A stretch of DNA of 63,528 bases, filler included, from Pirum gemmata (Eukaryota), in NCBI GenBank assembly GCA_002812295.1. It is 18 parts of 18 records of this genome, joined end to end, with 100 filler letters (N's around TTAATTAATTAA, not from the genome) between each part and the next. Parts side by side here need not be neighbours in the genome. Positions count along the whole stretch, not along the records: positions 54,095 to 57,168 come from PDIN01003570.1; 17 more parts are not named here. One strand, written 5' to 3'. Both the position numbers and the translations under genes were made by a program. The notes under the pieces are model-generated. The model saw only the letters and a program-made list of their open reading frames with translations, was not told the DNA's origin and ran no database searches. Positions 1,062-63,188 of this stretch are shown here, in pieces. Every line of letters begins with the position of its first letter. Position 1 is the stretch's first letter.

Positions 1062-2212
1062 TAGTCTACGATATCTAGCTAGATATTAGTATCGGATACT
1101 AGCTAGGTATCGGATAAGTATCGGATATCAACGTCATACAATACTTACCAGACTTAGATCTACCATTAACCATAGTATTACCATCATCATTCTTGAATAC
1201 CCTCCCTTTTAATGATATTCAATGTTGCGAATAAATACAGTTAAATACCATTAATTATGAGTATGATACTACGATTTTAATTTCATTATGGTTGTACCTA
1301 ATGGTTGTACTGATAGCAAATCCACTAGGTTCTACTAGTAGTGGGTTTTTAGTGTTAATCCCCACCTTTTTTTCAGCCAATTAGATTATGTATATACTGT
1401 TATTTTCCTAGTATTTTCCTGTATTTTATGGTAAAAAGGTAGGAATTAGAAGTGTTCACAACTATTTTGCAGCCTAATAACCCAACAAATGAAAATAAGA
1501 AAAGACATTTGCTCTTAATTAAACAGCTGCGAAAAGCATTAAATTCCTACCATTACCAGTGATTAACCACCACGTTCGATTTGTATTTTGAAGTTGTTTC
1601 TTAGTAAATTCCTATGTTCGAAAGTCGATCAATTAAAATGCCAGAAAGCAAAAATTGGATGCTAACAAGTGTGCAAAAAACAAGGACAAATCTGCTGCAA
1701 AAAATATTGTACTAAATTAATAAAAATACAAGCCATTTTATTCAAACTGGTATGNAAGCCATTTTATTCAAACTGGTATGTTTTTTATATATTTATTAAC
1801 TTTAAAAAGGTCCATTTCAAACTAGTCCATTTCAAATCAAAGACACGGGCAGCACCATTGCGGAACATTGGGAATATAATTCCCAGATATAGATTTAAGG
1901 GTACCGTCTTTCATTTTATCCTCATATTTCCAGGTGTTCCTGTACGAGAGGAACCAAGACGGGTATACAATATTCATCTCTATCTGTCGGAATTTTATTA
2001 TAATACATATCTTTATATATTCCTAATGTATAATAATAATAATAATAATAATAATAAACAAAAAAATAATAAATAAAAAAATAATAAATAAAAAAATAAA
2101 AAATAATAATAATAAAAAATAAAAAATAAAAAATAATAAATAATAATAAATAATAATAAATAATACTAATAAATAATAGATAATAAATAATAATAGATAA
2201 TAAATAATAATA

Positions 2213-2245
<33 letters not shown>

Positions 2246-2979
2246 CTATCAATCGGTGCGCAATTACTGTAAACCGGCGGGTCAAATACCAAAACGGTAG
2301 CTTTTCTACGTTCAAACTCTCCAATAATGGCACAAACTAACGAAAGGGCTGCGATAATTAAACCCGAAACAATTTTTTGCGGAGCCGTAACTTCGGAGCC
2401 TTTAAGTTTTTCAATAGCAGGAAAAATAATAATTTTAAAAATTGGAATAAAAATCAAAATAGCAATACCATCTGCAATACTAAAAAACGAACCGTTTAAT
2501 TGATTATTAGGATTACTTCCAAGTCTAATATCAGACTGACATGCCTAAATTATATAATATGTAGATTAGAATCAATTATAATAGTGGTGGTGGTTGTAAT
2601 GTCGAAGTAGTAGTAGAGGTGGTGGTGGTATGGAAGTAGTGGTGGTGGATGTGTGGAAGTGGTAATAGTAGTGGTGGTGGTGGTGGTGTGGAATGGTGTG
2701 GAAGTGTTAGTAGTAGTAGTAGTAGTGGCGGTGGTGGTGGTAATAGAACTAGTAATAGTGAAAGTAATAGTAATAGTAGTAGTAGTAGTAGTAGTAATAA
2801 TAGTAATAATAGTAATAATAGTAGTAGTAGTAGTAATAATAGTAATTGTAGTAGTGGCAGTAGTAATAGTTGTAGTAGTAGTAATAATAGTAGTAATAAT
2901 AGTAATAGTAATAGTGGTAGTAGTAGTAATAGCAGTAGTATTAATAATAATTAATCTTACCTGACTTTGATAAGGACCG
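2246..2979 (-). CDS. POT/PTR (NRT1/PTR) proton-dependent oligopeptide transporter, partial; exons 2979-2961 and 2544-2246
   Basis: Spliced translation GPYQSQ|ACQSDIRLG...FSIADGIAILIFIPIFKIIIFPAIEKLKGSEVTAPQKIVSGLIIAALSLVCAIIGEFERR matches the POT C-terminal-half helices; canonical GT-AG sites, phase-compatible. Confidence 0.8.
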
Positions 2980-10059: not shown

Positions 10060-10989
10060 ATGATGTTTTCCGTCGCCACCAGCGTTCTTGTTTTAGCTTC
10101 TGTAGCTTCTGGTTATAATATCAATACTCATTATGAAAAGAAATGGGCTTGTGAAAAGAATTTTCATTACAAAGGTTCTCATTCCAGTAACGGTTACACT
10201 GATAAGTTTTGCTCTAAACAATACTGTCTGAATAAAGACCCTAAGAATTACCCTGCCCAAGGTTGTTTTTACGCTGGTTTAACTGATTATGGTAAAAAGA
10301 ACTACAAACAATGTGAATGTTGGGAAGTAGGAAAGAAACACCATGTTATCAAACCAAAGGAGAGAAAATACAAATCGTATAAAAAGTACAAAACATATCA
10401 AAACTCTGTTGACTACAAACCACACAAACCTGAGCCTAAAGGTGATGACTATGAATGGAAATGTTATTCCAACGACGATTACCGCGGTAGCCATTCCACT
10501 TTGGGTTATGATGATAACTTTTGCACCAACTCTTATTGCTTAAACGGAGAAGGATTTGGTCCTGCCATGAACGGAGCGCCAGGCTGTTGGTATAAAGGTA
10601 TCACCAAACACAAGAAACACTTGAAACAGTGTCTATGTTATAAAGAAGATGGGTACGATGTCGATGAACCTGAGTACAAGGAACCTGAACCCGAGTACAA
10701 GGAACCTGAACCTGAGTACAAGGAACCTGAACCTGATTACGAGGAACCTGAACCTGAGTACAAGGAACCTGAACCTGATTACGAGGAACCTGAACCTGAG
10801 TACAAGGAACCTGAACCTGATTATGAGGAACCTGAACCTGAATATAAGGAACCTGAACCAAAGATTTACAAACATAAACCTACGACTTACAAACATGAAC
10901 CTAAAACTTACAAACACGAGCCTAAACCTGACACTTACGCGCCTGAATATGATGATGATGATGATGGTGAATACGAACTTGACTATTAA
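10060..10989 (+). CDS. Secreted Tyr/Lys-rich protein with two 6-Cys modules and EPEPEYK/EPEPDYE heptad repeats (probable wall/extracellular structural protein)
   Basis: Intact 309-aa ORF with hydrophobic signal peptide (MMFSVATSVLVLASVASG), internally duplicated Cys module, and GC content higher than the flanks. Confidence 0.9.
   Translation: MMFSVATSVLVLASVASGYNINTHYEKKWACEKNFHYKGSHSSNGYTDKFCSKQYCLNKDPKNYPAQGCFYAGLTDYGKKNYKQCECWEVGKKHHVIKPKERKYKSYKKYKTYQNSVDYKPHKPEPKGDDYEWKCYSNDDYRGSHSTLGYDDNFCTNSYCLNGEGFGPAMNGAPGCWYKGITKHKKHLKQCLCYKEDGYDVDEPEYKEPEPEYKEPEPEYKEPEPDYEEPEPEYKEPEPDYEEPEPEYKEPEPDYEEPEPEYKEPEPKIYKHKPTTYKHEPKTYKHEPKPDTYAPEYDDDDDGEYELDY
10666..10860 (+). repeat. 21-bp coding tandem repeat (about 9 units, EPEPEYK/EPEPDYE)
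   Basis: GAACCTGAACCTGAGTACAAG and GAACCTGAACCTGATTACGAG units. Confidence 0.95.
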
Positions 10990-49765: not shown

Positions 49766-51118
49766 GGTTTGGCCTAGCTTCCCATAAAATAGTGCCATAA
49801 ATATCAATTTACCCCCCGAAAGTGTTCCCTAGCCCATTTCGAGTTTTTTATAAATAGACCCCACGGGGGTCTATAGGTTTGATTTGCATATTTTTTTACC
49901 GATCTAAAAAAAAAAATTCAAATAAACACACGTTTTAGCCAATGGAGGGTTGTCTTTTGAGCTTGAACTAACTATTGGACTTTCGATCATTATAGCCATT
50001 TTTTAATTCGAAAATTTTTAAAAATATTTTTAAAAAAATAAACGAAATAATGATTGAATAGATTTATAGGGTTTCGGACCATGTTTGTTTCTACAATTTG
50101 CATATTTTGCTTTTTTCTCTATTTTTCCTTTTTTAGCCTTTTTTCCTCTCTAAATGTATCTTGGTTGGTGTCCCACTATCACACGAATGACAGTCGAATG
50201 ACCCTCTTATCTCGAAAAAATTTTAAAAAAAGTATATCTATTTTCAAACCCTGCAAATTAGCCTTTTTTTAATAGCGCTGTTAAAAAATAATAAGTAAAT
50301 TATTTTTTTTAAAAAAAGTATATATATTTTCAAACCCTGAAAATAAGCCCTTTTTTTTTTTTCGTTCCCTTTCTAGAAAATAGCAGTAAAATAGCGCTGT
50401 TAAAAAATAATAAGTAAATAATACAATTATAGTAGAGCATCATAGTTTGACATAGAACTACATAGTGTGCATGTCATTATCTATTAATTATTATTAATTA
50501 TATAATTATAATTTAAAATTTGTTGCTTGTAAACAACGCGGGTTATATTAATCAGATAATATAAGAGTATATAAGGTTAGAAGCTGAATTAGGATTAAGA
50601 ATTTCTAGGATTATGATTAGGGTTAGGATTGAATTATTAAGTAGGGTTATAATTAGTTAGGATAAAGTCATTCATTATGTTACAAAATTATCATACTGTA
50701 AAATGGTTAGGGTGAGGGGTCACTACGTTGCAGTGGCCATTTAATATAATATTGTTATAATATATATACTGTAGTCTACTATTGATAATAATACAATATC
50801 CAATTATATTATGCATTTTATATATTCTACATAATATATAATTATNNNNNNNNNNNNNNNNNNNNNNNNNNNNNNNNNNNNNNNNNNNNTTAATTAATTA
50901 ANNNNNNNNNNNNNNNNNNNNNNNNNNNNNNNNNNNNNNNNNNNNTTTATTTATTTATTTAATCCCCTTGCCTACCCCCTCCTCCTCTATCGTTGTTTGG
51001 TTTTTTCTCGGTTTTATTTTATTTCGATGTTGACATTTACCACCATTTGAAAATGTTTTAACTTTTATTATTATTATTATTATTATTATATCAATTTATA
51101 TATTTATAACTATAAAAG

Positions 51119-53172
51119 ACATTGCATCTTCAGGAGCTTATCAAGAAAACCTAAAGAAACAGCAACAGTTACTGCTTGACAACGTGGCTGCGATCAACCA
51201 CTACCTGGGAAAAAGTGGAAGAGAACATTATGATGAAATTGAAACAGTTAAACAACAAGTTAAAGAATTAGAAAACAAACAAGATTTAATTACAGCAGAG
51301 CATGGTGATTTCTACACGGAAGGAATTCGAGGCAAATTTAGTAAATTCAAAGTTAGAAAATATGACAGCTATTGGAATTGGTCTCGTCAAGATTTTTATA
51401 AGTTTAATAATAAATGCATGAGCTTGATGATGGCTGAGAAAACCAGCGATGGTAAAAATGATGGCGATAATTATCTTCTTTTAAAGTTGGATTGGAATAG
51501 AATTGTCAATCGCTTATCGATCCATGTGAAGGATAGTATTTTGTGTATGTTGGATTCTGAATTAGGTAAATGGGTATGTGATAATATTATTTGTGATGAT
51601 ATTGCTGATGTTCAAGAGAAGTTAATAAACTCTTTTGCTCAGGGTTGTGATTCGGTTTACAAGAAAAAAATTGCTCCACTTCGACCTAAAACTGACATAA
51701 CCGATACTGGAAAGTTGGTGTATTCTGAGGTTATCATTGTTGGTGTCATTGCTCTTGTTGTTTCAATAGCAAATTATTAATTTTATTTTTGTTTTGTTTT
51801 GTTTTTTTGTGTAATTTTTATCAGTGTTTCTGTTCTTGTTCTTGTTTTTATTAATATTACTATCGATATCAACATGGTTGCTAAATAATACCGAATCTAT
51901 CAAAAATTATTATAAATTTATATATAACCACACCACACAATGATTACTATTACACAACCACTACTACCTCCGCGACCACCATAACCAACATAACCACTAT
52001 AACCACTATATTCACAACCACAATCACAATCACAATCACAACCACAACCACAACCACAACCACAACCACAACCACAGCCACAACCACAATCACAACCATA
52101 TCACAACCACAACCATAATCACAACCATATCACAACCACATCATCATCAGCAGCAGCAACCTCTATATCCGCAACCTCTATATCCGCAACAACTACAACC
52201 GCACTTAATAGGTTACAAACATTTTCTTTTATTTATTACCAACCTTTTTGATCATAGGTTGAACGTACTATCAACTACGTAACCGAAATCCAAAGCGTAA
52301 TGGAGTTATGTGCTAAAGAAAAGGACTCTGAGTCACAATTATTTTCAGCATCCTCAGAGGAAGTATTGCGAAAAACTTTGGAAGAGATGTTACAGCTACA
52401 TAATCACGAACAACATGAACAACGCCAAAATGTTGTAGAAAAAATTGATATGTTTATGAAAATGTGCAAAAGTAACAAAAGAAGTGGCATTGGTGATGAT
52501 AATGAAATACCTTTAGTCAATTTGAAAAGACAGGTAAATGTTTATTTCACATGTCGTTATGTTTGTCCCCCCCTTCTCAAATCTCTTATTTTCTTCCAAG
52601 TTTTTTGTTTCTTGTTTTTTCTATTTTTTAGGGGTTTTTTATTATTATTATTTGGATTGGTTTGGTTTAGTTTAGTTTGCTTGTATGTGTGAGTGTTGTG
52701 TGGGTTAATAAATTAAAAGCAAAAGTTTTTTTATTAAAAGTTTTTTATCTATTTATTTCCTTTATTGGTTGTATCCATTTAATTTCCTTCTGATATATAT
52801 ATATATATATACGTGTATTGTTTTATTTTTTAACAACAACTTATAGAATGGTAGTAAATGGGTTTATGATAAAGATATGACCCAGAATCTTTTTAATTCT
52901 ATTAGTAATATCCAAGAAAATGGAATATCTTTGAAAGATAAAATGGTACTCATAACCGGATGTGGTCGTGGATCCATTGGAGAAGCGATTTTGGACGCCC
53001 TTCTTGCTGCAGGTTTTTTTTTTGGTGGTGTTGTTGTTGTTGTTTTAGTTTTAGTTTCGTTTAATTTCTTTTAGTTTAGTTTAGTTTCTTTTAGTTTGGT
53101 TTAGTTTCCTTTAGTTTCGTTTTGCTTCGCGATAGTGATAATGTAATGCTATTAATAATGATAATGATAAGG

Positions 53173-53204
<32 letters not shown>

Positions 53205-53655
53205 GTAGGTGCTCAAGTTGTAGTAACTTCTAGCTCGTTTACAAGTAGCTCTTTGGCAACTTTCCGCAACAAATATGAAACTTTAGGAGGAAAAGGCAGC
53301 TCTTTGACCGTGGTTCCCTTCAACCAAGGCTCCATTCAAGACTGCAAAAATCTTGTTGATTACATTTATGATGACCTAAAAATGGGTAAGCATTTGTATA
53401 CTTTTGTTACTTGGTTTTAGCTCAATTTTATTTTGTTTGGGGTTAGGTTGGGATTGGGATTGGGATTGGGATTGGGATTGAGATTGGGATTGTAAGTTTT
53501 TCTTTTTTAACAATTTTAATACTTACAACAGAACATTATTAACACTCTATTGTATTGTTTTCTTTTTGTTCATTTGGTAGATTTGGACTATATAATTCCT
53601 TTTGCTGCTATTTCTGAAAATGGACGGATGATTAATGGAGTTGATGACCGTTCAG
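51119..53655 (+). CDS. FAS2: Fungal-type fatty acid synthase, alpha-chain helical and ketoreductase region, partial; exons about 51119-51729, 52258-52533, 52847-53012, 53209-53385, 53581-53655
   Basis: AEHGDFYTEGI...YDSYWNWSRQD, DKMVLITGCGRGSIG..G|AQVVVTSS, VVPFNQGS, D|LDYIIPFAAISENG are collinear with yeast Fas2; all introns GT-AG and in phase. Confidence 0.93.
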
Positions 53656-54094
53656 GTAAAACTTAAGTGTTATATTTAACTGTAACAATCAATCCGTAGA
53701 ACCGCCTAATCATTTGTCACACACATACACTAATTTATCTCTTTTCAGAGATTCACTAAATTGACTGTCTTAACTCTTAACGTTACCATTTCCATTACAT
53801 TATCATTACTATTACCATTACCATTGTCATTGCTATTGCTAATACTATTACCATTACGCTGTTACCATTACCATTACCATTACCATTACCATTACCATTA
53901 CCATTACTATTACTATTACTATTACCATTGCTACTATTACTATTACTATTACTATTACTATTTCTATTACTATTACTGTTACTATTACTATTACNNNNNN
54001 NNNNNNNNNNNNNNNNNNNNNNNNNNNNNNNNNNNNNNTTAATTAATTAANNNNNNNNNNNNNNNNNNNNNNNNNNNNNNNNNNNNNNNNNNNN

Positions 54095-54617
54095 AGTTAT
54101 TTTTACTATTTTTACTATTTTTACTATTTTTACTATTTTTACTATTTTTACTATTTTTACTATTTTTACTACTATTCTTACTACTATTCTTACTATTATT
54201 GTTACTATTCTTACTATTCTTACTATTGTTACTATTTTTATTCTTACTAATATGTTTATTTGTAACTTGTAATTTTTTATTTATAACCTTAATATTTCTA
54301 TCGGTTAATTTAATAGAATCTGATAATATTAATGACAGTTCCCCTAAGTCTTTCATATTTTGAGTTTCTATGTTTTTTATTTCATTTTTTAAATCATCAA
54401 ACTTGTAATAAGATGATACAAATAGATATATGATGGCCACTATAAGCAATATAATCGGTATCCAAATTAGAAAATTCGAGGCGACATGTCCAGGTTGTCC
54501 GGTAGACTGTGTAGACGGTGTAGACGGTGTAGACTGTGTAGACTGTGTAGACTGTGTGTGTGTAGACTTTGTAGACTGTGTAAAATTTTCGGGTATAAAG
54601 GAGGAAGTTTCATCCAT
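54095..54617 (-). CDS. Hypothetical viral-type membrane protein (STQ repeat, one TM helix, coiled coil, SKN-repeat tail; 3' truncated)
   Basis: ATG-initiated ORF with TM segment FLIWIPIILLIVAIIYLFV; runs off the scaffold end. Confidence 0.75.
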
Positions 54618-54698
54618 ATTTTTTTAAAAACAACCTTTGTTTTTAAATTAAATGATAATATAAATAATAATATAAAAATTAAAAATTAAAAATCAAAA
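54618..54698. promoter_or_regulatory. Probable bidirectional AT-rich viral promoter
   Basis: 81 bp between divergent ATGs, with tandem AAAATTAA/AAAAT motifs. Confidence 0.45.
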
Positions 54699-55748
54699 AT
54701 GAAACTTAATGAACGACAAAAGAATCATCTTATTAAGATGTGCGAGATCAGGCAATATAAAAATATAGATACGAACCCCGTCTTTGAAAATATTGCACCA
54801 GAGTTTCAGAGTATGGCCAACCTAGTAGAACTTCACTGTGACCATATTATTGTAATTTATACACAACATTACAAAAATAACATTGATTTTATTAAACATT
54901 TGCTTAAATTTGTCAAGTGTTTATCCAATATTAAGCATGTGATTATTATCCATAAAAACAACATTACAGCCAGTGTACGCAAAATTTCAAAGCAATCCAA
55001 CGAATTAGTCATTGAATTATTTAAAATCAACAAATTTGGCTTTTGTCCGTTGGATCACAAACTCGTACCAAAACATACACGAATTAGCAAAGATAGTGAG
55101 GAGTATAAAGAAATTTTCAACTTCGGCATTGACAAGTTACCTTTGTTATACAAATCCGATACCATAGTCCGTTATTATAACTATAAAGTAGGCGATGTAA
55201 TACGTATTGAAAGGAAAGATGGATTAGTAGCTTATCGAAAAGTGACCAATACCGTATCATCTACTATTGGGTTAAATTCGGTACCGGTAAAAAACTATTT
55301 ATCCAAGGACCCATTACTGCAAGAAAAAAACTTGGTTAATATTTTATTTGATTCTATTAGTCTACCTCCATCGCAAAAACAAAAGTTTACTGCCCATATT
55401 AACCGACAATATGATGATGATGATGATGATGATGATGTTGATATGGTATCTCATAAAAACAAACTTGCCTTTGAAATTTTGGGTCTATGTTGCTCATTAA
55501 AAAGTCTACAATTGGTTGATGAAAAGTTAACCCAAAATCCGACTTTGATACATGAATCGTTTGCCAAACAGCTTGATGATGAAGACCAATTCTTTCTTAA
55601 ACCACCCGAAGTCGTTGAAGGGTTGTATACTTGTCATAAATGTAAAAATTCATTAACAATTAGTTCAAGTAAACAAACTAGAAGTGCCGATGAACCTTCT
55701 ACCGTGTTTATCAAATGTGTTACCTGTAAAAATTCATGGATTGAATAA
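54699..55748 (+). CDS. RNA polymerase subunit RPB5 fused to a TFIIS-type transcript cleavage factor
   Basis: About aa 1-183 is RPB5 (HKLVPKH...KLPLLYKSDTIVRYY...GDVIRIERK...YRKV). The C-terminus is a TFIIS zinc ribbon, EGLYTCHKC...QTRSADEPSTVFIKCVTC...W. No stop or gap between them. Confidence 0.9.
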   Translation: MKLNERQKNHLIKMCEIRQYKNIDTNPVFENIAPEFQSMANLVELHCDHIIVIYTQHYKNNIDFIKHLLKFVKCLSNIKHVIIIHKNNITASVRKISKQSNELVIELFKINKFGFCPLDHKLVPKHTRISKDSEEYKEIFNFGIDKLPLLYKSDTIVRYYNYKVGDVIRIERKDGLVAYRKVTNTVSSTIGLNSVPVKNYLSKDPLLQEKNLVNILFDSISLPPSQKQKFTAHINRQYDDDDDDDDVDMVSHKNKLAFEILGLCCSLKSLQLVDEKLTQNPTLIHESFAKQLDDEDQFFLKPPEVVEGLYTCHKCKNSLTISSSKQTRSADEPSTVFIKCVTCKNSWIE

Positions 55749-55757
55749 TTTTGTTGT

Positions 55758-56174
55758 TTAAGGGGTTTGTGTTGATTGTGTTGATTGTGTTGATTGTGTT
55801 GATTGTGTTGATTGTGTTGATTGTGTTGATTGTGTTGATTGTGTTGATTGTGTTGATTGTGCCGATACCGGAGCGTATACCGGAGCCGATACCGGAGCCG
55901 ATAACGGTGAAGAAGTCATCATATCATTTTGGAAGACATGGCTTTGTCGATGTTGTGACTTTATTTGTTGTTTTATAGATTCCATACTGGGATGTATGTA
56001 ATTATTTATATATTGTACTGTTTTTTCAATATTCTCCGTATTGTATTGAATTTTAGGAACGTTATCGTTAATATAGGAAACAATAGTTTCTAGGTCTTTC
56101 CTTAACGTTAACAACTCTTGAAATAATTGAATTTGTTTTTCTTCTTTAGAAGGATAATTGTTAAGTTTTAACAT
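55758..56174 (-). CDS. Hypothetical viral-type protein (helical N-terminus, APVS and STQ repeats)
   Basis: 138-aa ORF with AAAAATG start, packed tail-to-tail with the RPB5-TFIIS gene. Confidence 0.7.
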   Translation of the reverse strand: MLKLNNYPSKEEKQIQLFQELLTLRKDLETIVSYINDNVPKIQYNTENIEKTVQYINNYIHPSMESIKQQIKSQHRQSHVFQNDMMTSSPLSAPVSAPVYAPVSAQSTQSTQSTQSTQSTQSTQSTQSTQSTQSTQTP

Positions 56175-56233
56175 TTTTAGTAGTTATTTAAAGTCATTTA
56201 AAGTAATTTTTTAAATAAAGTTTTTTAAATAAA

Positions 56234-57058
56234 TTAATTTAAATTTGATAAATAATTAAAGGGAATATTAAAGACTTTATTAATAATAAACTTGCAATGT
56301 GCATTTATTAGCAGTATTTTATGAATATTAGAAGCCACAATACTAGCAGTATCATAGCTGTTACGGCTTTTGTTTTCGCTCAGATTTTTATAATGCACTG
56401 GATAAAATGATTTAGGCAGACAACGATGCATTTTCGCTAAACAATCCAAGTTTATCCAAACGTAACCATTGACATCGCTATTTTGTAACGTAACTTTTAA
56501 ACTTGTTTCCACGGGGATTACATAATACAAAACACATTTTTGTATTTTTATTTGCTGTATTGAATTACCTAGTAAAGTCTCCTTGGAAATTTTTATTCCA
56601 GTTTCCTCTTCTAATTCTCGTACAGCACAAGAAGGAAAATCTTCCTTAGCCAAGAACGATCCTTTGGGAAACCCCCAAAGGTCACCATGACTTTGGACTA
56701 GTAATACTTGGTTATTATTTTTATTAAACAAAATTACTCCAGCTTTGTTTTTATGTAACGGGTAAATTTTTTTATCATAGTCTCGGGCAGTTAGGCCATC
56801 GTTCCATTTGATACTAGTAAATTTAATAGCGTCCGTGACCCGAAATACACATTGGTTACATGGACATTCATAGTTCAATGGAAAGATAACGTCGGTCAAT
56901 CGATTATATAGCTCATAATTCAAATGTTTATTAAAGGTATGAGTTCTATATTTGTTAACTAACGAACTAGGGGTCGCATCCGAGTCTTGTGATATACTTT
57001 TCGGTGTAGTATGTGTATGTGTTGAGTATAAAATTGATTTTTTGGATATAGAATTCAT
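56234..57058 (-). CDS. Nudix hydrolase (viral mRNA-decapping type likely)
   Basis: WGFPKG-SFLAK-E-DFPSCAV-RELEEETGI is a complete GX5EX7REUXEEXGU Nudix box. First usable ATG at 57058 (ORF track starts at TTG 57085). Confidence 0.9.
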   Translation of the reverse strand: MNSISKKSILYSTHTHTTPKSISQDSDATPSSLVNKYRTHTFNKHLNYELYNRLTDVIFPLNYECPCNQCVFRVTDAIKFTSIKWNDGLTARDYDKKIYPLHKNKAGVILFNKNNNQVLLVQSHGDLWGFPKGSFLAKEDFPSCAVRELEEETGIKISKETLLGNSIQQIKIQKCVLYYVIPVETSLKVTLQNSDVNGYVWINLDCLAKMHRCLPKSFYPVHYKNLSENKSRNSYDTASIVASNIHKILLINAHCKFIINKVFNIPFNYLSNLN

Positions 57059-58429
57059 GATGATTAATATATTTGTGCATTTCAAATCCTATTTATTTAC
57101 TTTCATATTTTTTTCCTCTAAGCTAAAAAATATATATATAAATGTTTGAAATAAAATAATAAAATAATNNNNNNNNNNNNNNNNNNNNNNNNNNNNNNNN
57201 NNNNNNNNNNNNTTAATTAATTAANNNNNNNNNNNNNNNNNNNNNNNNNNNNNNNNNNNNNNNNNNNNTATTATTATTATTTTAAAAATAGTAATAATAC
57301 TATAATAATGGTAATAAGAATATATTAAAATAAGAATAATAGTATAGTAATGATAACAACAATAATAAAATTCTTCAATTTGTTTTTGTCTTAATTATGA
57401 TAACATGATTTACATCAGTGTTGCATTGTCAATTACGTATAATTTAAGTTATTGAGAAATTATTTTATTGATATAATACTTTTTTTGATTGTATATAATA
57501 TATCAAAATACTTTTTTTAAAAAAAAAATTAATTAGGAAATTAATTGAAAAATGATTATGGCACACTGTTACGCACTCGTACGCGTTGTTACCAATCTTG
57601 CTGTTGCTGTTGTTACTGTACTAGTTGCTATTGCTCTTGCTCTTGTTTTTACATTTGTTGTAAAAGTTATCGTTATATCGCTGTGCTGTTTTGTTGTTAT
57701 TATTAATTGATTATGGTGAAGTTGACGTTGGCGTTGGTAGTATAACCACAACCATGTACAGTATTTTAATGACAATTATAATAATGATAATATTATAATA
57801 TAATATAGTTATAATTATACTGTTATATTATAATATATACATTTGTTGTAACAGTTAGTTTATGTATGATAAACAAATAATAATAGAAATAATAATAATA
57901 TGGGTGTAATAATAATAATACTTAATAATAATAATAATAAAATAATACCTACATTCCTCCAAAAAATACTAGTAGTAGCTCTAGTAGTTTTGATTTTGTA
58001 TATACTTTCTGTACATAATATCGATATACATTAAGCTATGATACCATTGAGGTTATAAAATTTAATAATAAGAACCTGAAAAATATGACATAGACCCAGG
58101 TCTACGACTGCAAACTCTACTGCTGCAGCTAATATTAATTATATAATCATAGTACAGGAGTGTACAGGAAGAACACTGGAAAAACTTGTGTTACTATAAA
58201 AGTAAAAAATATAAAAAAAAAGAAAAGAAAAGGAGAATCAGGATTCAGGAGATTCCATACATAAATTCCAACAACTATGGAAGACATGCAATTGGGCAAT
58301 AGAAAATCTGTTCAACTTAGAATATTCCAAATAAAGAACTTTTGAGTCTTGAATTCTAAAAACAACCAAATATAGTAACTTTTTAAAATGAAAAAAATGT
58401 TTTTCCCTAGACTATCTAGGACTATGGTG

Positions 58430-61541: not shown

Positions 61542-63188
61542 ATGAGTTTACAAGTATTTCCCTTTATTATTTGTAGCTATTTCATAGCATACTTGAATTT
61601 ATTTGGGATGTACTCCTATGCCACTTCAAATTCTTTATCCCAATCCTCAACAAACCTTACACCTGATCAACTAATCTCCAAAATGGTAACTAATGGCCCA
61701 ATCAATAACAATTACGATGCTTTTGTAATATACACTCTTGAAGAAATCAATCAAATTTATGCCACAACGTACGCTAACCAACTTATACCCTTACAGCCAT
61801 TTACCATGAATTATAACGTCACTAACGCCACTGACGCCTCGATTCAACCACCTATTTATTGGTACTATTATTCTATTGTAATGAGTTTCACTAATCCAGT
61901 ACTTTCGTTTAACGAAGAAGGTCTGGTTGTTTTGTCTCAAACCATCTCACCTGGAAGTTATTACAATCAAACAACTTGTTATGGACCCCCGCTGATCAAC
62001 ACAACTCAAACTTCAGTGGAAAAAGTTTATTTCAATAACGCCACTTTCACTTTAACCTGCCCATTAGCTAAAATGCAAAGCATAGTTGAAGGAGGACTTA
62101 TAGCTTTAAACTTAACAAACTCTACGCTGGAAATTAACGAACCAAACTTACCTTCACAATTTGCAACAGATTTTGCTGATTACTGGAAGGACGGGAAAGA
62201 TGAAATATATACTTTGGGGAAAATTACAGACGCGGGTAAAGTTTACAATTCACTCGTACCATATGATTTCGACGTTTGCACTATACCAAAACAACTTAAT
62301 GATGAAAATGCTTATGTTGTGATTGTAATCAACACCCAGGCCTCGAACCAAACAGTACAACTAAATGTGAGCTGTTATGAGTTATTCCCTGCATCTTTGT
62401 ATGAAACAATGATTCCACAAGGTTATGGTGTCTCGTTGTATTTATCCACGCGAAATATGGCTTCATTCTTACAAGATACTTTAGCAGATACAGTAAATGT
62501 CAATGAAGTGAAAATAAATGAACAAACTGGGCAAATGTTAAACATGACCGCAAACTCGACTCTGTACAATGTTCAATATATAGATAATTCACAATGTAAA
62601 GTAGACAGCACTTCGACTATGAATGGGGAATATTACAACTGTGGTTATTCATCTAAAAAAACTGTAACAAATGGTGCAAAACCCAGTTTCTTGAAAGATA
62701 ATAGTAAAGAAGGTACACCTTCATATGTGTGGCAGTTACAGGCAGAGCACGATGATGTTGCTTCGTGTGCTCAGTGGGGTAGTAACCCTTTAGCAAACGT
62801 AAAGTGTGGTTGTTGTTATGGCCAAAATGGTCCTCACGACGTATGTGTTAAACCTCAGTATTTTTCAGGTCTTGATTTAGAATTAAATATGAACGCCTTT
62901 GATGCAGATTTGAATATAACTTTGAATTATAATCATACTTATACATCAGCAGTTCAGGCCTGTGATTCTTATTCAGTTACTGCTTCACCTATAAATCGAA
63001 CTGGGGTATTTACTAGTGCTATAACAAATGTAGACCAAGCCTCCCATACCATATCTGAAACCTTATCTGTTTTTCGTCTTTCTAATATTCTCTTTCCTGA
63101 ATGTCATGTAATGAGTTTTAATTATGTAAAACATACTCCAGATTTAGCAATTTTTGGGGAAATGATAAAAGGGGGGTCTGGATGTTGA
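61542..63188 (+). CDS. 548-aa intronless secreted or membrane-anchored protein, possibly P47/TULIP-like, with Cys-rich C-terminal half
   Basis: Intact long ORF with hydrophobic N-terminus and many NxS/T sequons; terminal motifs YDAFVIYTLEEINQIY and FRLSNILFP...PDLAIFG. The ORF is confident; the family is tentative. Confidence 0.85.
   Translation: MSLQVFPFIICSYFIAYLNLFGMYSYATSNSLSQSSTNLTPDQLISKMVTNGPINNNYDAFVIYTLEEINQIYATTYANQLIPLQPFTMNYNVTNATDASIQPPIYWYYYSIVMSFTNPVLSFNEEGLVVLSQTISPGSYYNQTTCYGPPLINTTQTSVEKVYFNNATFTLTCPLAKMQSIVEGGLIALNLTNSTLEINEPNLPSQFATDFADYWKDGKDEIYTLGKITDAGKVYNSLVPYDFDVCTIPKQLNDENAYVVIVINTQASNQTVQLNVSCYELFPASLYETMIPQGYGVSLYLSTRNMASFLQDTLADTVNVNEVKINEQTGQMLNMTANSTLYNVQYIDNSQCKVDSTSTMNGEYYNCGYSSKKTVTNGAKPSFLKDNSKEGTPSYVWQLQAEHDDVASCAQWGSNPLANVKCGCCYGQNGPHDVCVKPQYFSGLDLELNMNAFDADLNITLNYNHTYTSAVQACDSYSVTASPINRTGVFTSAITNVDQASHTISETLSVFRLSNILFPECHVMSFNYVKHTPDLAIFGEMIKGGSGC

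What the first reader, a model, noticed from the sequence alone, without database searches (positions are those of the whole stretch)
54699..55748. RPB5-TFIIS fusion: a viral RNA polymerase that may carry its cleavage factor tethered to RPB5
Seen: one uninterrupted 349-aa ORF. It runs from a complete RPB5 (ending YRKV at about aa 183), through a short Ser/Thr linker and a helical region with a poly-Asp tract, into a TFIIS C-terminal zinc ribbon with all four Cys and the acidic hairpin QTRSADEP intact. Established: TFIIS is a dissociable factor for Pol II, whereas Pol I A12.2, Pol III C11 and poxvirus Rpo30 build TFIIS-like domains into the polymerase; RPB5 and TFIIS are normally separate genes in cells and NCLDVs. 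Inference: this would be an independent route to a built-in proofreading/anti-arrest domain via RPB5. I do not recall this architecture being described, but cannot search to confirm novelty.
Basis: partly seen in the sequence, partly recalled or inferred. Interest (0 to 1): 0.88.

Follow-up and report, generated by a model that had tools for sequence, protein, structure and literature searches.

The report
Giant-virus RPB5 fused to TFIIS
A likely giant-virus gene encodes the RNA polymerase subunit RPB5 and the proofreading factor TFIIS as one protein, the same join turns up in three other environmental proteins and probably arose twice, and it would give these viruses a polymerase with its rescue factor permanently attached.

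Summary
Confirmed. 54699-55748 is one stop-free 349-aa frame: RPB5 (aa 1-183), a ~22-aa linker, a predicted helical bundle with a poly-Asp tract, and a TFIIS zinc ribbon with QTRSADEP and four Cys. The window is a string of joined ~3-kb contigs. This one is intronless and giant-virus-like; its neighbours are unrelated eukaryotic contigs. A public contig, possibly from the source sample, bridges the RPB5/linker junction but not the GAT repeat. Three other full-length fusions exist (25-28% identical to this one). They form one clade, and most tree tests reject grouping this protein with them, so two origins are likely. Named relatives belong to Pimascovirales family PM_01. None of 114 IMG/VR loci is fused; two have the genes side by side. 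Best reading (0.6): a stoichiometric, tethered transcript-cleavage factor, functionally like poxvirus Rpo30 or Pol I A12.2 and Pol III C11 but anchored through RPB5. Expression, linker reach and activity are untested, and this copy's docking domain is poorly conserved. A new variant of a known kind.

The parts
54699..55748 (+). RPB5-TFIIS fusion ORF, 349 aa
   Evidence: fused homologs P0008, P0033, P0156
54699..55247 (+). RPB5 half (aa 1-183). Keeps H120, P124, D154, R172 (yeast H147, P151, D182, R200) and R180 (likely yeast R212)
   Evidence: alignment; conserved columns; critical yeast positions from PMC1802627 passages
55248..55310 (+). Linker, about 22 aa (28-34 aa in the three other fusions); no Met; coding-like GC
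   Evidence: low pLDDT at aa 185-210
55311..55598 (+). Predicted helical bundle and long helix (aa ~205-300), likely a divergent TFIIS domain II plus linker helix
   Evidence: model pLDDT 82.8; Foldseek top 7 are Pol II TFIIS chains aligned over 151-173 columns; weak on its own by sequence
55411..55442 (+). GAT microsatellite coding the poly-Asp tract; the one place not bridged by a listed public contig; followed by M249 at 55443, the only internal Met after RPB5
55629..55739 (+). TFIIS domain III zinc ribbon with QTRSADEP and four Cys
   Evidence: VIA Z 6.8, rmsd 1.7, 46 aligned, 44% identity to yeast TFIIS 263-308
56234..57058 (-). Nudix hydrolase gene, intronless neighbour
   Evidence: Pfam NUDIX E 4.4e-14; 38-44% identity to Nudix genes in 3 of 5 giant-virus bins
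54095..57168 (.). The real contig (3074 bp): membrane-protein ORF (-), the fusion (+), coiled-coil ORF (-), Nudix (-); dense and intronless
   Evidence: flat contig depth 409-522 in run X1

Best explanation
The gene encodes RPB5 and TFIIS in one frame, it likely belongs to a Pimascovirales (PM_01-like) giant virus, and the protein is predicted to assemble into the viral RNA polymerase through its RPB5 half so that TFIIS would be held there permanently, one copy per enzyme. Shown: the open frame, the two domains, the intact RPB1-binding residues and QxRxxDE motif, and three other proteins with the same order. Inferred from yeast Pol II: RPB5 docks on the largest subunit. The 22-34 residue linker then lets the helical domain sit near the jaw and funnel, and the ribbon inserts its Asp-Glu hairpin beside the catalytic Mg when the polymerase backtracks, triggering RNA cleavage and restart. 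Inferred origin: tandem RPB5 and TFIIS genes, a state seen in locus L086, merged at least twice. In this copy the tether may have relaxed selection on the docking domain.
For: Recurrence. 2 of the 150 listed hits span both halves (P0008 340 aa, P0033 353 aa), and a third (P0156, 350 aa, seen on 3 contigs) came from the profile search. All three carry both Pfam domains. They are 45-54% identical to P0156 and form a 100/99 clade, so that fusion has been kept through long divergence; their ribbon regions stay 51-53 of 69 identical.

Intact residues. Yeast-critical Rpb5 positions and the QxRxxDE motif are kept in the window protein.

Frame kept. All seven tandem repeats found inside ORFs of the contig have periods of 3, 9, 12 or 18.

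Precursor state. L086 has RPB5 then TFIIS on one strand, 19 bp apart and out of frame; L120 has TFIIS-RPB5-RPB2 in a row.

TFIIS is already polymerase-associated in this order. Ranavirus TFIIS co-purified with tagged polymerase along with Rpb5 (PMC8734342 passages). TFIIS is among the 20 most abundant pithovirus virion proteins (PMC12724359 passages).

Viral affinity. 7 of 7 named relative bins found in the GVDB table are PM_01 (4 of the 11 names looked up were absent). The best BFVD match is a pithovirus-like RPB5.
Against: Reach and expression. No expression data, and the linker's reach was not measured.

Weak docking domain. The window's helical region scores weakly against the stand-alone profile: 5 of 500 shuffles are as high for aa 183-298, and 411 of 1000 for the part before the poly-Asp. 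That last test is weak for the other fusions too (36-260 of 1000). hhalign of the region gave probability 0.3%.

Rarity. The fused state is found in 0 of 114 IMG/VR loci. In 6 of 9 bins an RPB5 was found and each stands alone. 123 of 123 RPB5-only hits with the end motif stop within 10 residues of it.

This copy. Its nearest RPB5 is unfused, M249 could start a 101-aa free TFIIS like the 104-aa one of L120, and the GAT repeat is not bridged.
Confidence: 0.6

Rival explanations
1. The fusion is real and expressed but is an expression or packaging device. It delivers RPB5 and TFIIS together, and TFIIS works in trans, after proteolysis in the linker, or from an internal start (M249 here).
For: Linker sequence is not conserved between the window and the other fusions (1-4 of 18 identical). 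M249 would give a 101-aa protein like the 104-aa stand-alone TFIIS of L120. Earlier scan notes report other partners fused to viral RPB5 (unchecked), which suggests RPB5 tolerates passengers.
Against: No AT-rich, promoter-like stretch lies before M249 (the region is 32-36% GC). Linker lengths fall in a narrow range, about 22-34 aa. The partner is one that acts on the same enzyme.
Confidence: 0.2
2. The window's copy is a private, nearly neutral read-through in an endogenised or declining viral sequence. Only the P0008/P0033/P0156 clade is a selected fusion.
For: The contig sits in an assembly of a eukaryote (intron-bearing fungal-type fatty acid synthase next door) and shares its microsatellite-rich style. 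The nearest RPB5 is unfused. The end branch is long and the helical domain divergent. No second copy of this lineage was found.
Against: All four ORFs of the contig are open as far as it reaches, in-ORF repeats keep frame, catalytic and RPB1-binding residues are intact, and the linker has coding GC with no start codon where stand-alone TFIIS (130-167 aa) would begin. A bare stop loss would not give that.
Confidence: 0.13
3. The window's frame is an assembly chimera, joined at the GAT repeat between an extended RPB5 gene and a separate short TFIIS gene.
For: No listed Logan contig bridges 55402-55449; depths on the two sides are 416 and 522. GAT repeats are common in the surrounding assembly. 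The part before the repeat is not demonstrably TFIIS by sequence.
Against: The repeat is only about 32 bp. The frame runs through it. The total length (349) matches the independent fusions (340-353). The profile alignment runs in register across the repeat (aa 225-348). A chance join of exactly these two genes is unlikely.
Confidence: 0.07

Closest known systems
Vaccinia Rpo30 (TFIIS-like core subunit of poxvirus RNA polymerase)
   Same: A TFIIS homolog counted among the eight core subunits, beside the RPB5 homolog Rpo22 (PMC10881513 and PMC11711665 passages).
   Different: Rpo30 is a separate polypeptide. Here the attachment would be covalent, through the RPB5 C-terminus.
Pol I A12.2, Pol III C11, archaeal TFS
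   Same: They share the C-terminal Zn ribbon with QxRxxDE that triggers transcript cleavage (PMC2919709 passages). The model's ribbon matches them over 40-57 columns.
   Different: They are anchored by an Rpb9-like N-terminal ribbon (recalled). This protein has no such ribbon; it has RPB5 and a helical domain instead.
Pol II TFIIS (domains II-III) and stand-alone Pimascovirales PM_01-type TFIIS (130-167 aa)
   Same: Helical domain, linker helix and ribbon. The top 7 Foldseek hits are Pol II TFIIS chains. The window's C-half falls among PM-type TFIIS with 100/95 support.
   Different: Those are free factors with their own start codon. This one is fused, has a poly-Asp insert and has a more divergent helical domain.
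Known giant-virus polymerase fusions: RPB3-11, and ASFV RPB7 with a methyltransferase-like domain
   Same: Fusion of polymerase parts into one chain is an established NCLDV habit (PMC10881513 passages).
   Different: The passages read name no RPB5-TFIIS fusion. ASFV RPB5 is separate, and no TFIIS came with purified ASFV polymerase.

Membership tests
RPB5/Rpo5 | C-terminal assembly domain (PF01191) over the curated cut-off | tested here: met
   46.9 bits vs 23.5
RPB5/Rpo5 | Eukaryote-type N-terminal jaw module | tested here: met
   phmmer aligns aa 21-174 to yeast Rpb5; Foldseek aligns ~200 columns to full Rpb5 chains; PF03871 itself did not hit
RPB5/Rpo5 | RPB1-binding residues H147, P151, D182, R200, R212 | tested here: met
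   H120, P124, D154, R172 by the alignment; R180 invariant in 25 rows, its match to R212 inferred from position
RPB5/Rpo5 | Incorporation into the polymerase | not testable with these tools
   needs purification; no cognate RPB1 is on the 3-kb contig
TFIIS | Zn ribbon with four Cys and QxRxxDE | tested here: met
TFIIS | Domain II helical bundle before the linker | tested here: inconclusive
   Foldseek whole-length hits to TFIIS at E 3e-5 to 6e-4 but TM ~0.26; PM-type N-terminus matches TFIIS_M-bearing viral proteins at E 9e-5, 59% probability; the window's own region is weak and PF07500 does not hit
TFIIS | Stimulates transcript cleavage | not testable with these tools
   needs an in vitro assay
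A12.2 / C11 / Rpb9 / TFS subunits | N-terminal zinc ribbon that anchors the subunit | tested here: not met
   the region before the C-ribbon is predicted all-helical and has no second four-Cys ribbon; the feature is recalled
Pimascovirales family PM_01 | Placement in the concatenated marker-gene phylogeny | not testable with these tools
   the contig has no marker genes and no genome is held
Pimascovirales family PM_01 | Single-gene affinity of both halves and the Nudix neighbour to PM_01 bins | tested here: inconclusive
   7 of 7 named relatives found in the table are PM_01; the three-fusion clade nests near them, but P0001 is on a long, unresolved branch

The most novel reading that the evidence does not exclude
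Pimascovirales giant viruses have at least twice, independently, made TFIIS a covalent part of RNA polymerase by hanging it on the RPB5 C-terminus. This is a new route to a built-in proofreading subunit. In the window's lineage the tether has largely replaced docking by domain II, which would explain why that domain has drifted while the catalytic hairpin has not.
Probability: 0.35. Interest if true: 0.8.

Novelty: new variant of a known kind. Interest (0 to 1): 0.64.

Why it matters
Whether a transcript-cleavage factor is free (Pol II TFIIS) or built in (Pol I, Pol III, poxvirus) is a basic design choice of multisubunit polymerases. A natural RPB5-TFIIS chain, apparently evolved twice and with an adjacent-gene precursor on record, shows another way to build it in. 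It gives a direct test of what permanent tethering does to fidelity, pausing and arrest: the same join can be tried in a model polymerase such as yeast Pol II. It also puts a PM_01-like virus in the assembly of a eukaryote with a fungal-type fatty acid synthase, a host lead for a family whose table rows seen here are all cultivation-independent.

Tried and rejected
Homolog searches with single proteins. The word-index search with P0001 found nothing among 958 candidates. Pattern scans of viral contigs with P0001, P0008, P0033, A1 and P0156 confirmed no relative. The metagenome scan gave 1 ribbon-only locus and covered 18 of 64 parts. The prokaryote genome scan gave none.

A false fifth fusion. 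L086 looked like one by tblastn but is two genes with a stop between them.

Reverse-order fusions. P0006 and P0032 have N-terminal extensions without a TFIIS domain.

Alignments and folds. The mixed alignment A7 stacked the halves on each other and was discarded. The full-length model from 4 sequences was poor (pLDDT 56.7, pTM 0.39) and says nothing about inter-domain geometry. VIA found no distinctive match for the helical bundle.

ESM Atlas. No feature hit for P0001 or P0156. Among the rows shown for P0156's model, RPB5 and TFIIS halves matched separate viral clusters and none covered both.

Sequencing runs. No RNA holder was listed. Host-contig depth could not be obtained, so free virus versus integrated copy stays open.

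Complex prediction.

Mycodnaviridae as the virus group. Considered because of the fungal-type host gene, but its abstract places it near Imitervirales and Algavirales, while the relatives here are Pimascovirales.

One origin for all four fusions. Rejected in 6 of 7 AU tests, one of them borderline (p 0.049); not rejected in the 13-row concatenated test (p 0.093).

BFVD lists several long RPB5 proteins (293-454 aa: Pithovirus LCPAC201 and LCPAC202, Orpheovirus, Solumvirus; also a 372-aa uncharacterized Sylvanvirus protein). Their extra regions could not be inspected.

Full report
Observation. The frame at 54699-55748 is open for 349 codons. Pfam gives Rpb5_C (aa 118-175) and the TFIIS zinc ribbon (311-347), both over cut-off. 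PDB sequence search aligns aa 21-174 to yeast Rpb5 and 301-347 to TFIIS. That alignment maps yeast H147, P151, D182 and R200 to H120, P124, D154 and R172. These are positions that yeast genetics found critical for binding Rpb1 (PMC1802627, passages). R180 is invariant in 25 rows and is likely yeast R212. The invariant QxRxxDE of cleavage factors (PMC2919709, passages) is present as QTRSADE.

Setting. The window is not one molecule: 17 N-TTAATTAATTAA-N spacers join 18 pieces of about 3-6 kb. The gene lies on a 3074-bp piece (54095-57168) with four intronless ORFs, including a Nudix gene. The piece before it holds exons of a fungal-type fatty acid synthase, so the assembly is of a eukaryote, but that gene is not physically linked. 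No whole genome is held. Free virus versus integrated copy could not be settled.

Is the join real? In run X1 (possibly the source sample; contigs only) one contig covers 54125-55401 with one differing letter and no gap, and another covers 55450-55796 with none. The GAT repeat between them is not bridged by a listed contig. The linker is 32-36% GC against 7-16% in the contig's non-coding stretches. There is no Met between aa 39 and 249. All seven tandem repeats inside ORFs have periods divisible by three. No RNA run is listed.

Relatives. An exhaustive phmmer search of 1.84 billion representatives gave 2414 hits at E <= 0.001. Of the 150 listed, 136 match the RPB5 half only, 12 the TFIIS half only and 2 both (P0008, P0033); hits beyond the top 150 were not seen. 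Profile searches added P0156 (4 hits of 3567 candidates; 4 of 7817). The three are 25-28% identical to the window protein and come from different public collections, on contigs up to 14, 52 and 66 kb whose DNA I could not read. In IMG/VR, 80 + 20 + 14 loci were fetched (the first and last scans covered 16 and 31 of 64 parts) and none is fused. Of 47 loci with a PM-type TFIIS, many of them near-copies, 3 hold RPB5 in the fetched DNA. L086 has RPB5 then TFIIS, 19 bp apart and out of frame; L120 has TFIIS, RPB5, RPB2; in L021 RPB5 is 4.4 kb away. L086 and L120 came from queries containing RPB5, so this is not an unbiased rate. RPB5 was found in 6 of 9 giant-virus bins and is stand-alone in all 6. 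Of 11 bin names looked up in the GVDB table (PMC8575486, supplement rows), 7 were present and all 7 are Pimascovirales PM_01. The best BFVD structural match is Pithovirus LCPAC104 RPB5.

One origin or two? P0008, P0033 and P0156 form a clade at 100/98-100 in both halves. The window protein groups instead with stand-alone P0002 (96/92). AU tests of all four as one clade gave, for RPB5, p 0.013 (48 rows, LG+G4), 0.003 (28 rows, C20), and 0.003 and 0.002 after dropping P0016 and then P0002. For TFIIS they gave 0.049 (46 rows) and 0.004 (30 rows). A 13-row concatenation without the nearest stand-alone relatives did not reject it (0.093). Rows were hand-picked subsets of 150 RPB5 and 103 TFIIS rows, the alignments are short, and P0001 is a long branch. 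I put two origins at about 65%; one origin with later splits remains possible.

The middle region. With 46 sequences the C-half folds at pLDDT 82.8 into a helical bundle, a long helix and a ribbon. Foldseek's seven hits at E <= 0.001 are all Pol II TFIIS chains aligned over 151-173 columns, but with TM about 0.26 and rmsd 16-18. VIA matches only the ribbon (Z 6.8, rmsd 1.7, 46 residues). The stand-alone PM-type N-terminus matches TFIIS_M-bearing viral proteins by hhalign (E 9e-5, probability 59%), so it is probably domain II. The window's own version is faint: 5 of 500 shuffles score as high over aa 183-298, and the part before the poly-Asp is at chance level (411 of 1000), in a test that is also weak for the other fusions. 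Domain II homology for this copy is therefore likely but not shown.

Mechanism. Shown: one chain with intact RPB1-binding and catalytic residues. Inferred: RPB5 assembles on the largest subunit (its C-module binds Rpb1 beta24/25 and alpha44/47), and a 22-34 aa linker holds TFIIS near its site. The step from associated to covalent looks small in this order. Ranavirus TFIIS co-purified with tagged polymerase (PMC8734342, passages) and TFIIS is abundant in pithovirus virions (PMC12724359, passages). Against generality, purified ASFV polymerase carried no known transcription factor (PMC11711665, passages). Odds: tethered factor acting in cis 0.6; co-delivery, processing or internal start 0.2; private neutral read-through 0.13; chimera at the repeat 0.07.

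Novelty. Ten full-text searches (six aimed at the fusion or its geometry) turned up no RPB5-TFIIS fusion. I read passages of PMC10881513, PMC8734342, PMC12724359, PMC8383183, PMC1802627, PMC2919709, PMC13524828, PMC3493329, PMC13175633, PMC11711665 and PMC9732441; the abstract, a zero-hit term search and the supplement list of PMC13533422; and supplement rows of PMC8575486. Other listed papers were seen as listings only. The library lacks most subscription papers, and genome-catalogue supplements I did not open could list the architecture. One database annotation already gives P0008 a compound TFIIS/polymerase name. The scan's index returned nothing by sequence and only notes on other RPB5 fusions by words. 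Built-in TFIIS-like subunits and fused viral polymerase subunits are known, so this is a new variant of a known kind. Interest 0.64: real, recurrent and testable, but rare and functionally unproven.

Noticed in passing
window 1-63528: The window is 18 unrelated ~3-6 kb pieces joined by N44-TTAATTAATTAA-N44 spacers; apparent ORFs and neighbourhoods that cross a spacer are artefacts.
   Followed up: yes
window 50946-53994: Intron-bearing exons of a fungal-type fatty acid synthase (FAS_I_H E 1.8e-30). A PM_01-like viral contig in the same assembly is a possible host lead for that uncultured family.
   Followed up: partly
L122-L125, L127-L129 (bins G001, G002, G006, G007): RPB1 is split into two genes (about 930 aa and 445-550 aa) on different contigs in these bins, while G004 has one 1418-aa frame.
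   Followed up: partly
L120:139-4239: A compact transcription cluster, TFIIS-RPB5-RPB2 on one strand, with a short 104-aa TFIIS lacking the first helices.
   Followed up: partly
proteins P0006, P0032 (and P0087 in the same clade): Viral RPB5 with an N-terminal extension of two Cys/His repeats (C-x-x-x-x-x-RGK-x-KG...C...C-x-H), possibly zinc fingers, with no Pfam match.
   Followed up: no
L117:267-1010, L121:3737-4480: Viral RPB5 proteins of 247 aa with about 60 extra C-terminal residues that are not TFIIS; C-terminal extension of RPB5 is tolerated.
   Followed up: partly
L020:3533-5237: Two Nudix genes related to the window's Nudix lie directly upstream of a stand-alone TFIIS.
   Followed up: no
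window 61542-63188 (+): Intronless 548-aa ORF with a signal-peptide-like start and Cys-rich C-half; no Pfam match and no match in the fetched viral loci.
   Followed up: partly
window 10060-10989 (+): 309-aa secreted-looking protein with two Cys-rich repeats and an EPEPEYK repeat tract; no Pfam match.
   Followed up: no
window 21733-22293 (-) and 2023-2544 (-): Weak Tf2-like SH3 hit (likely retrotransposon remnant, E 0.021) and a POT-family transporter exon (E 1.2e-8).
   Followed up: no
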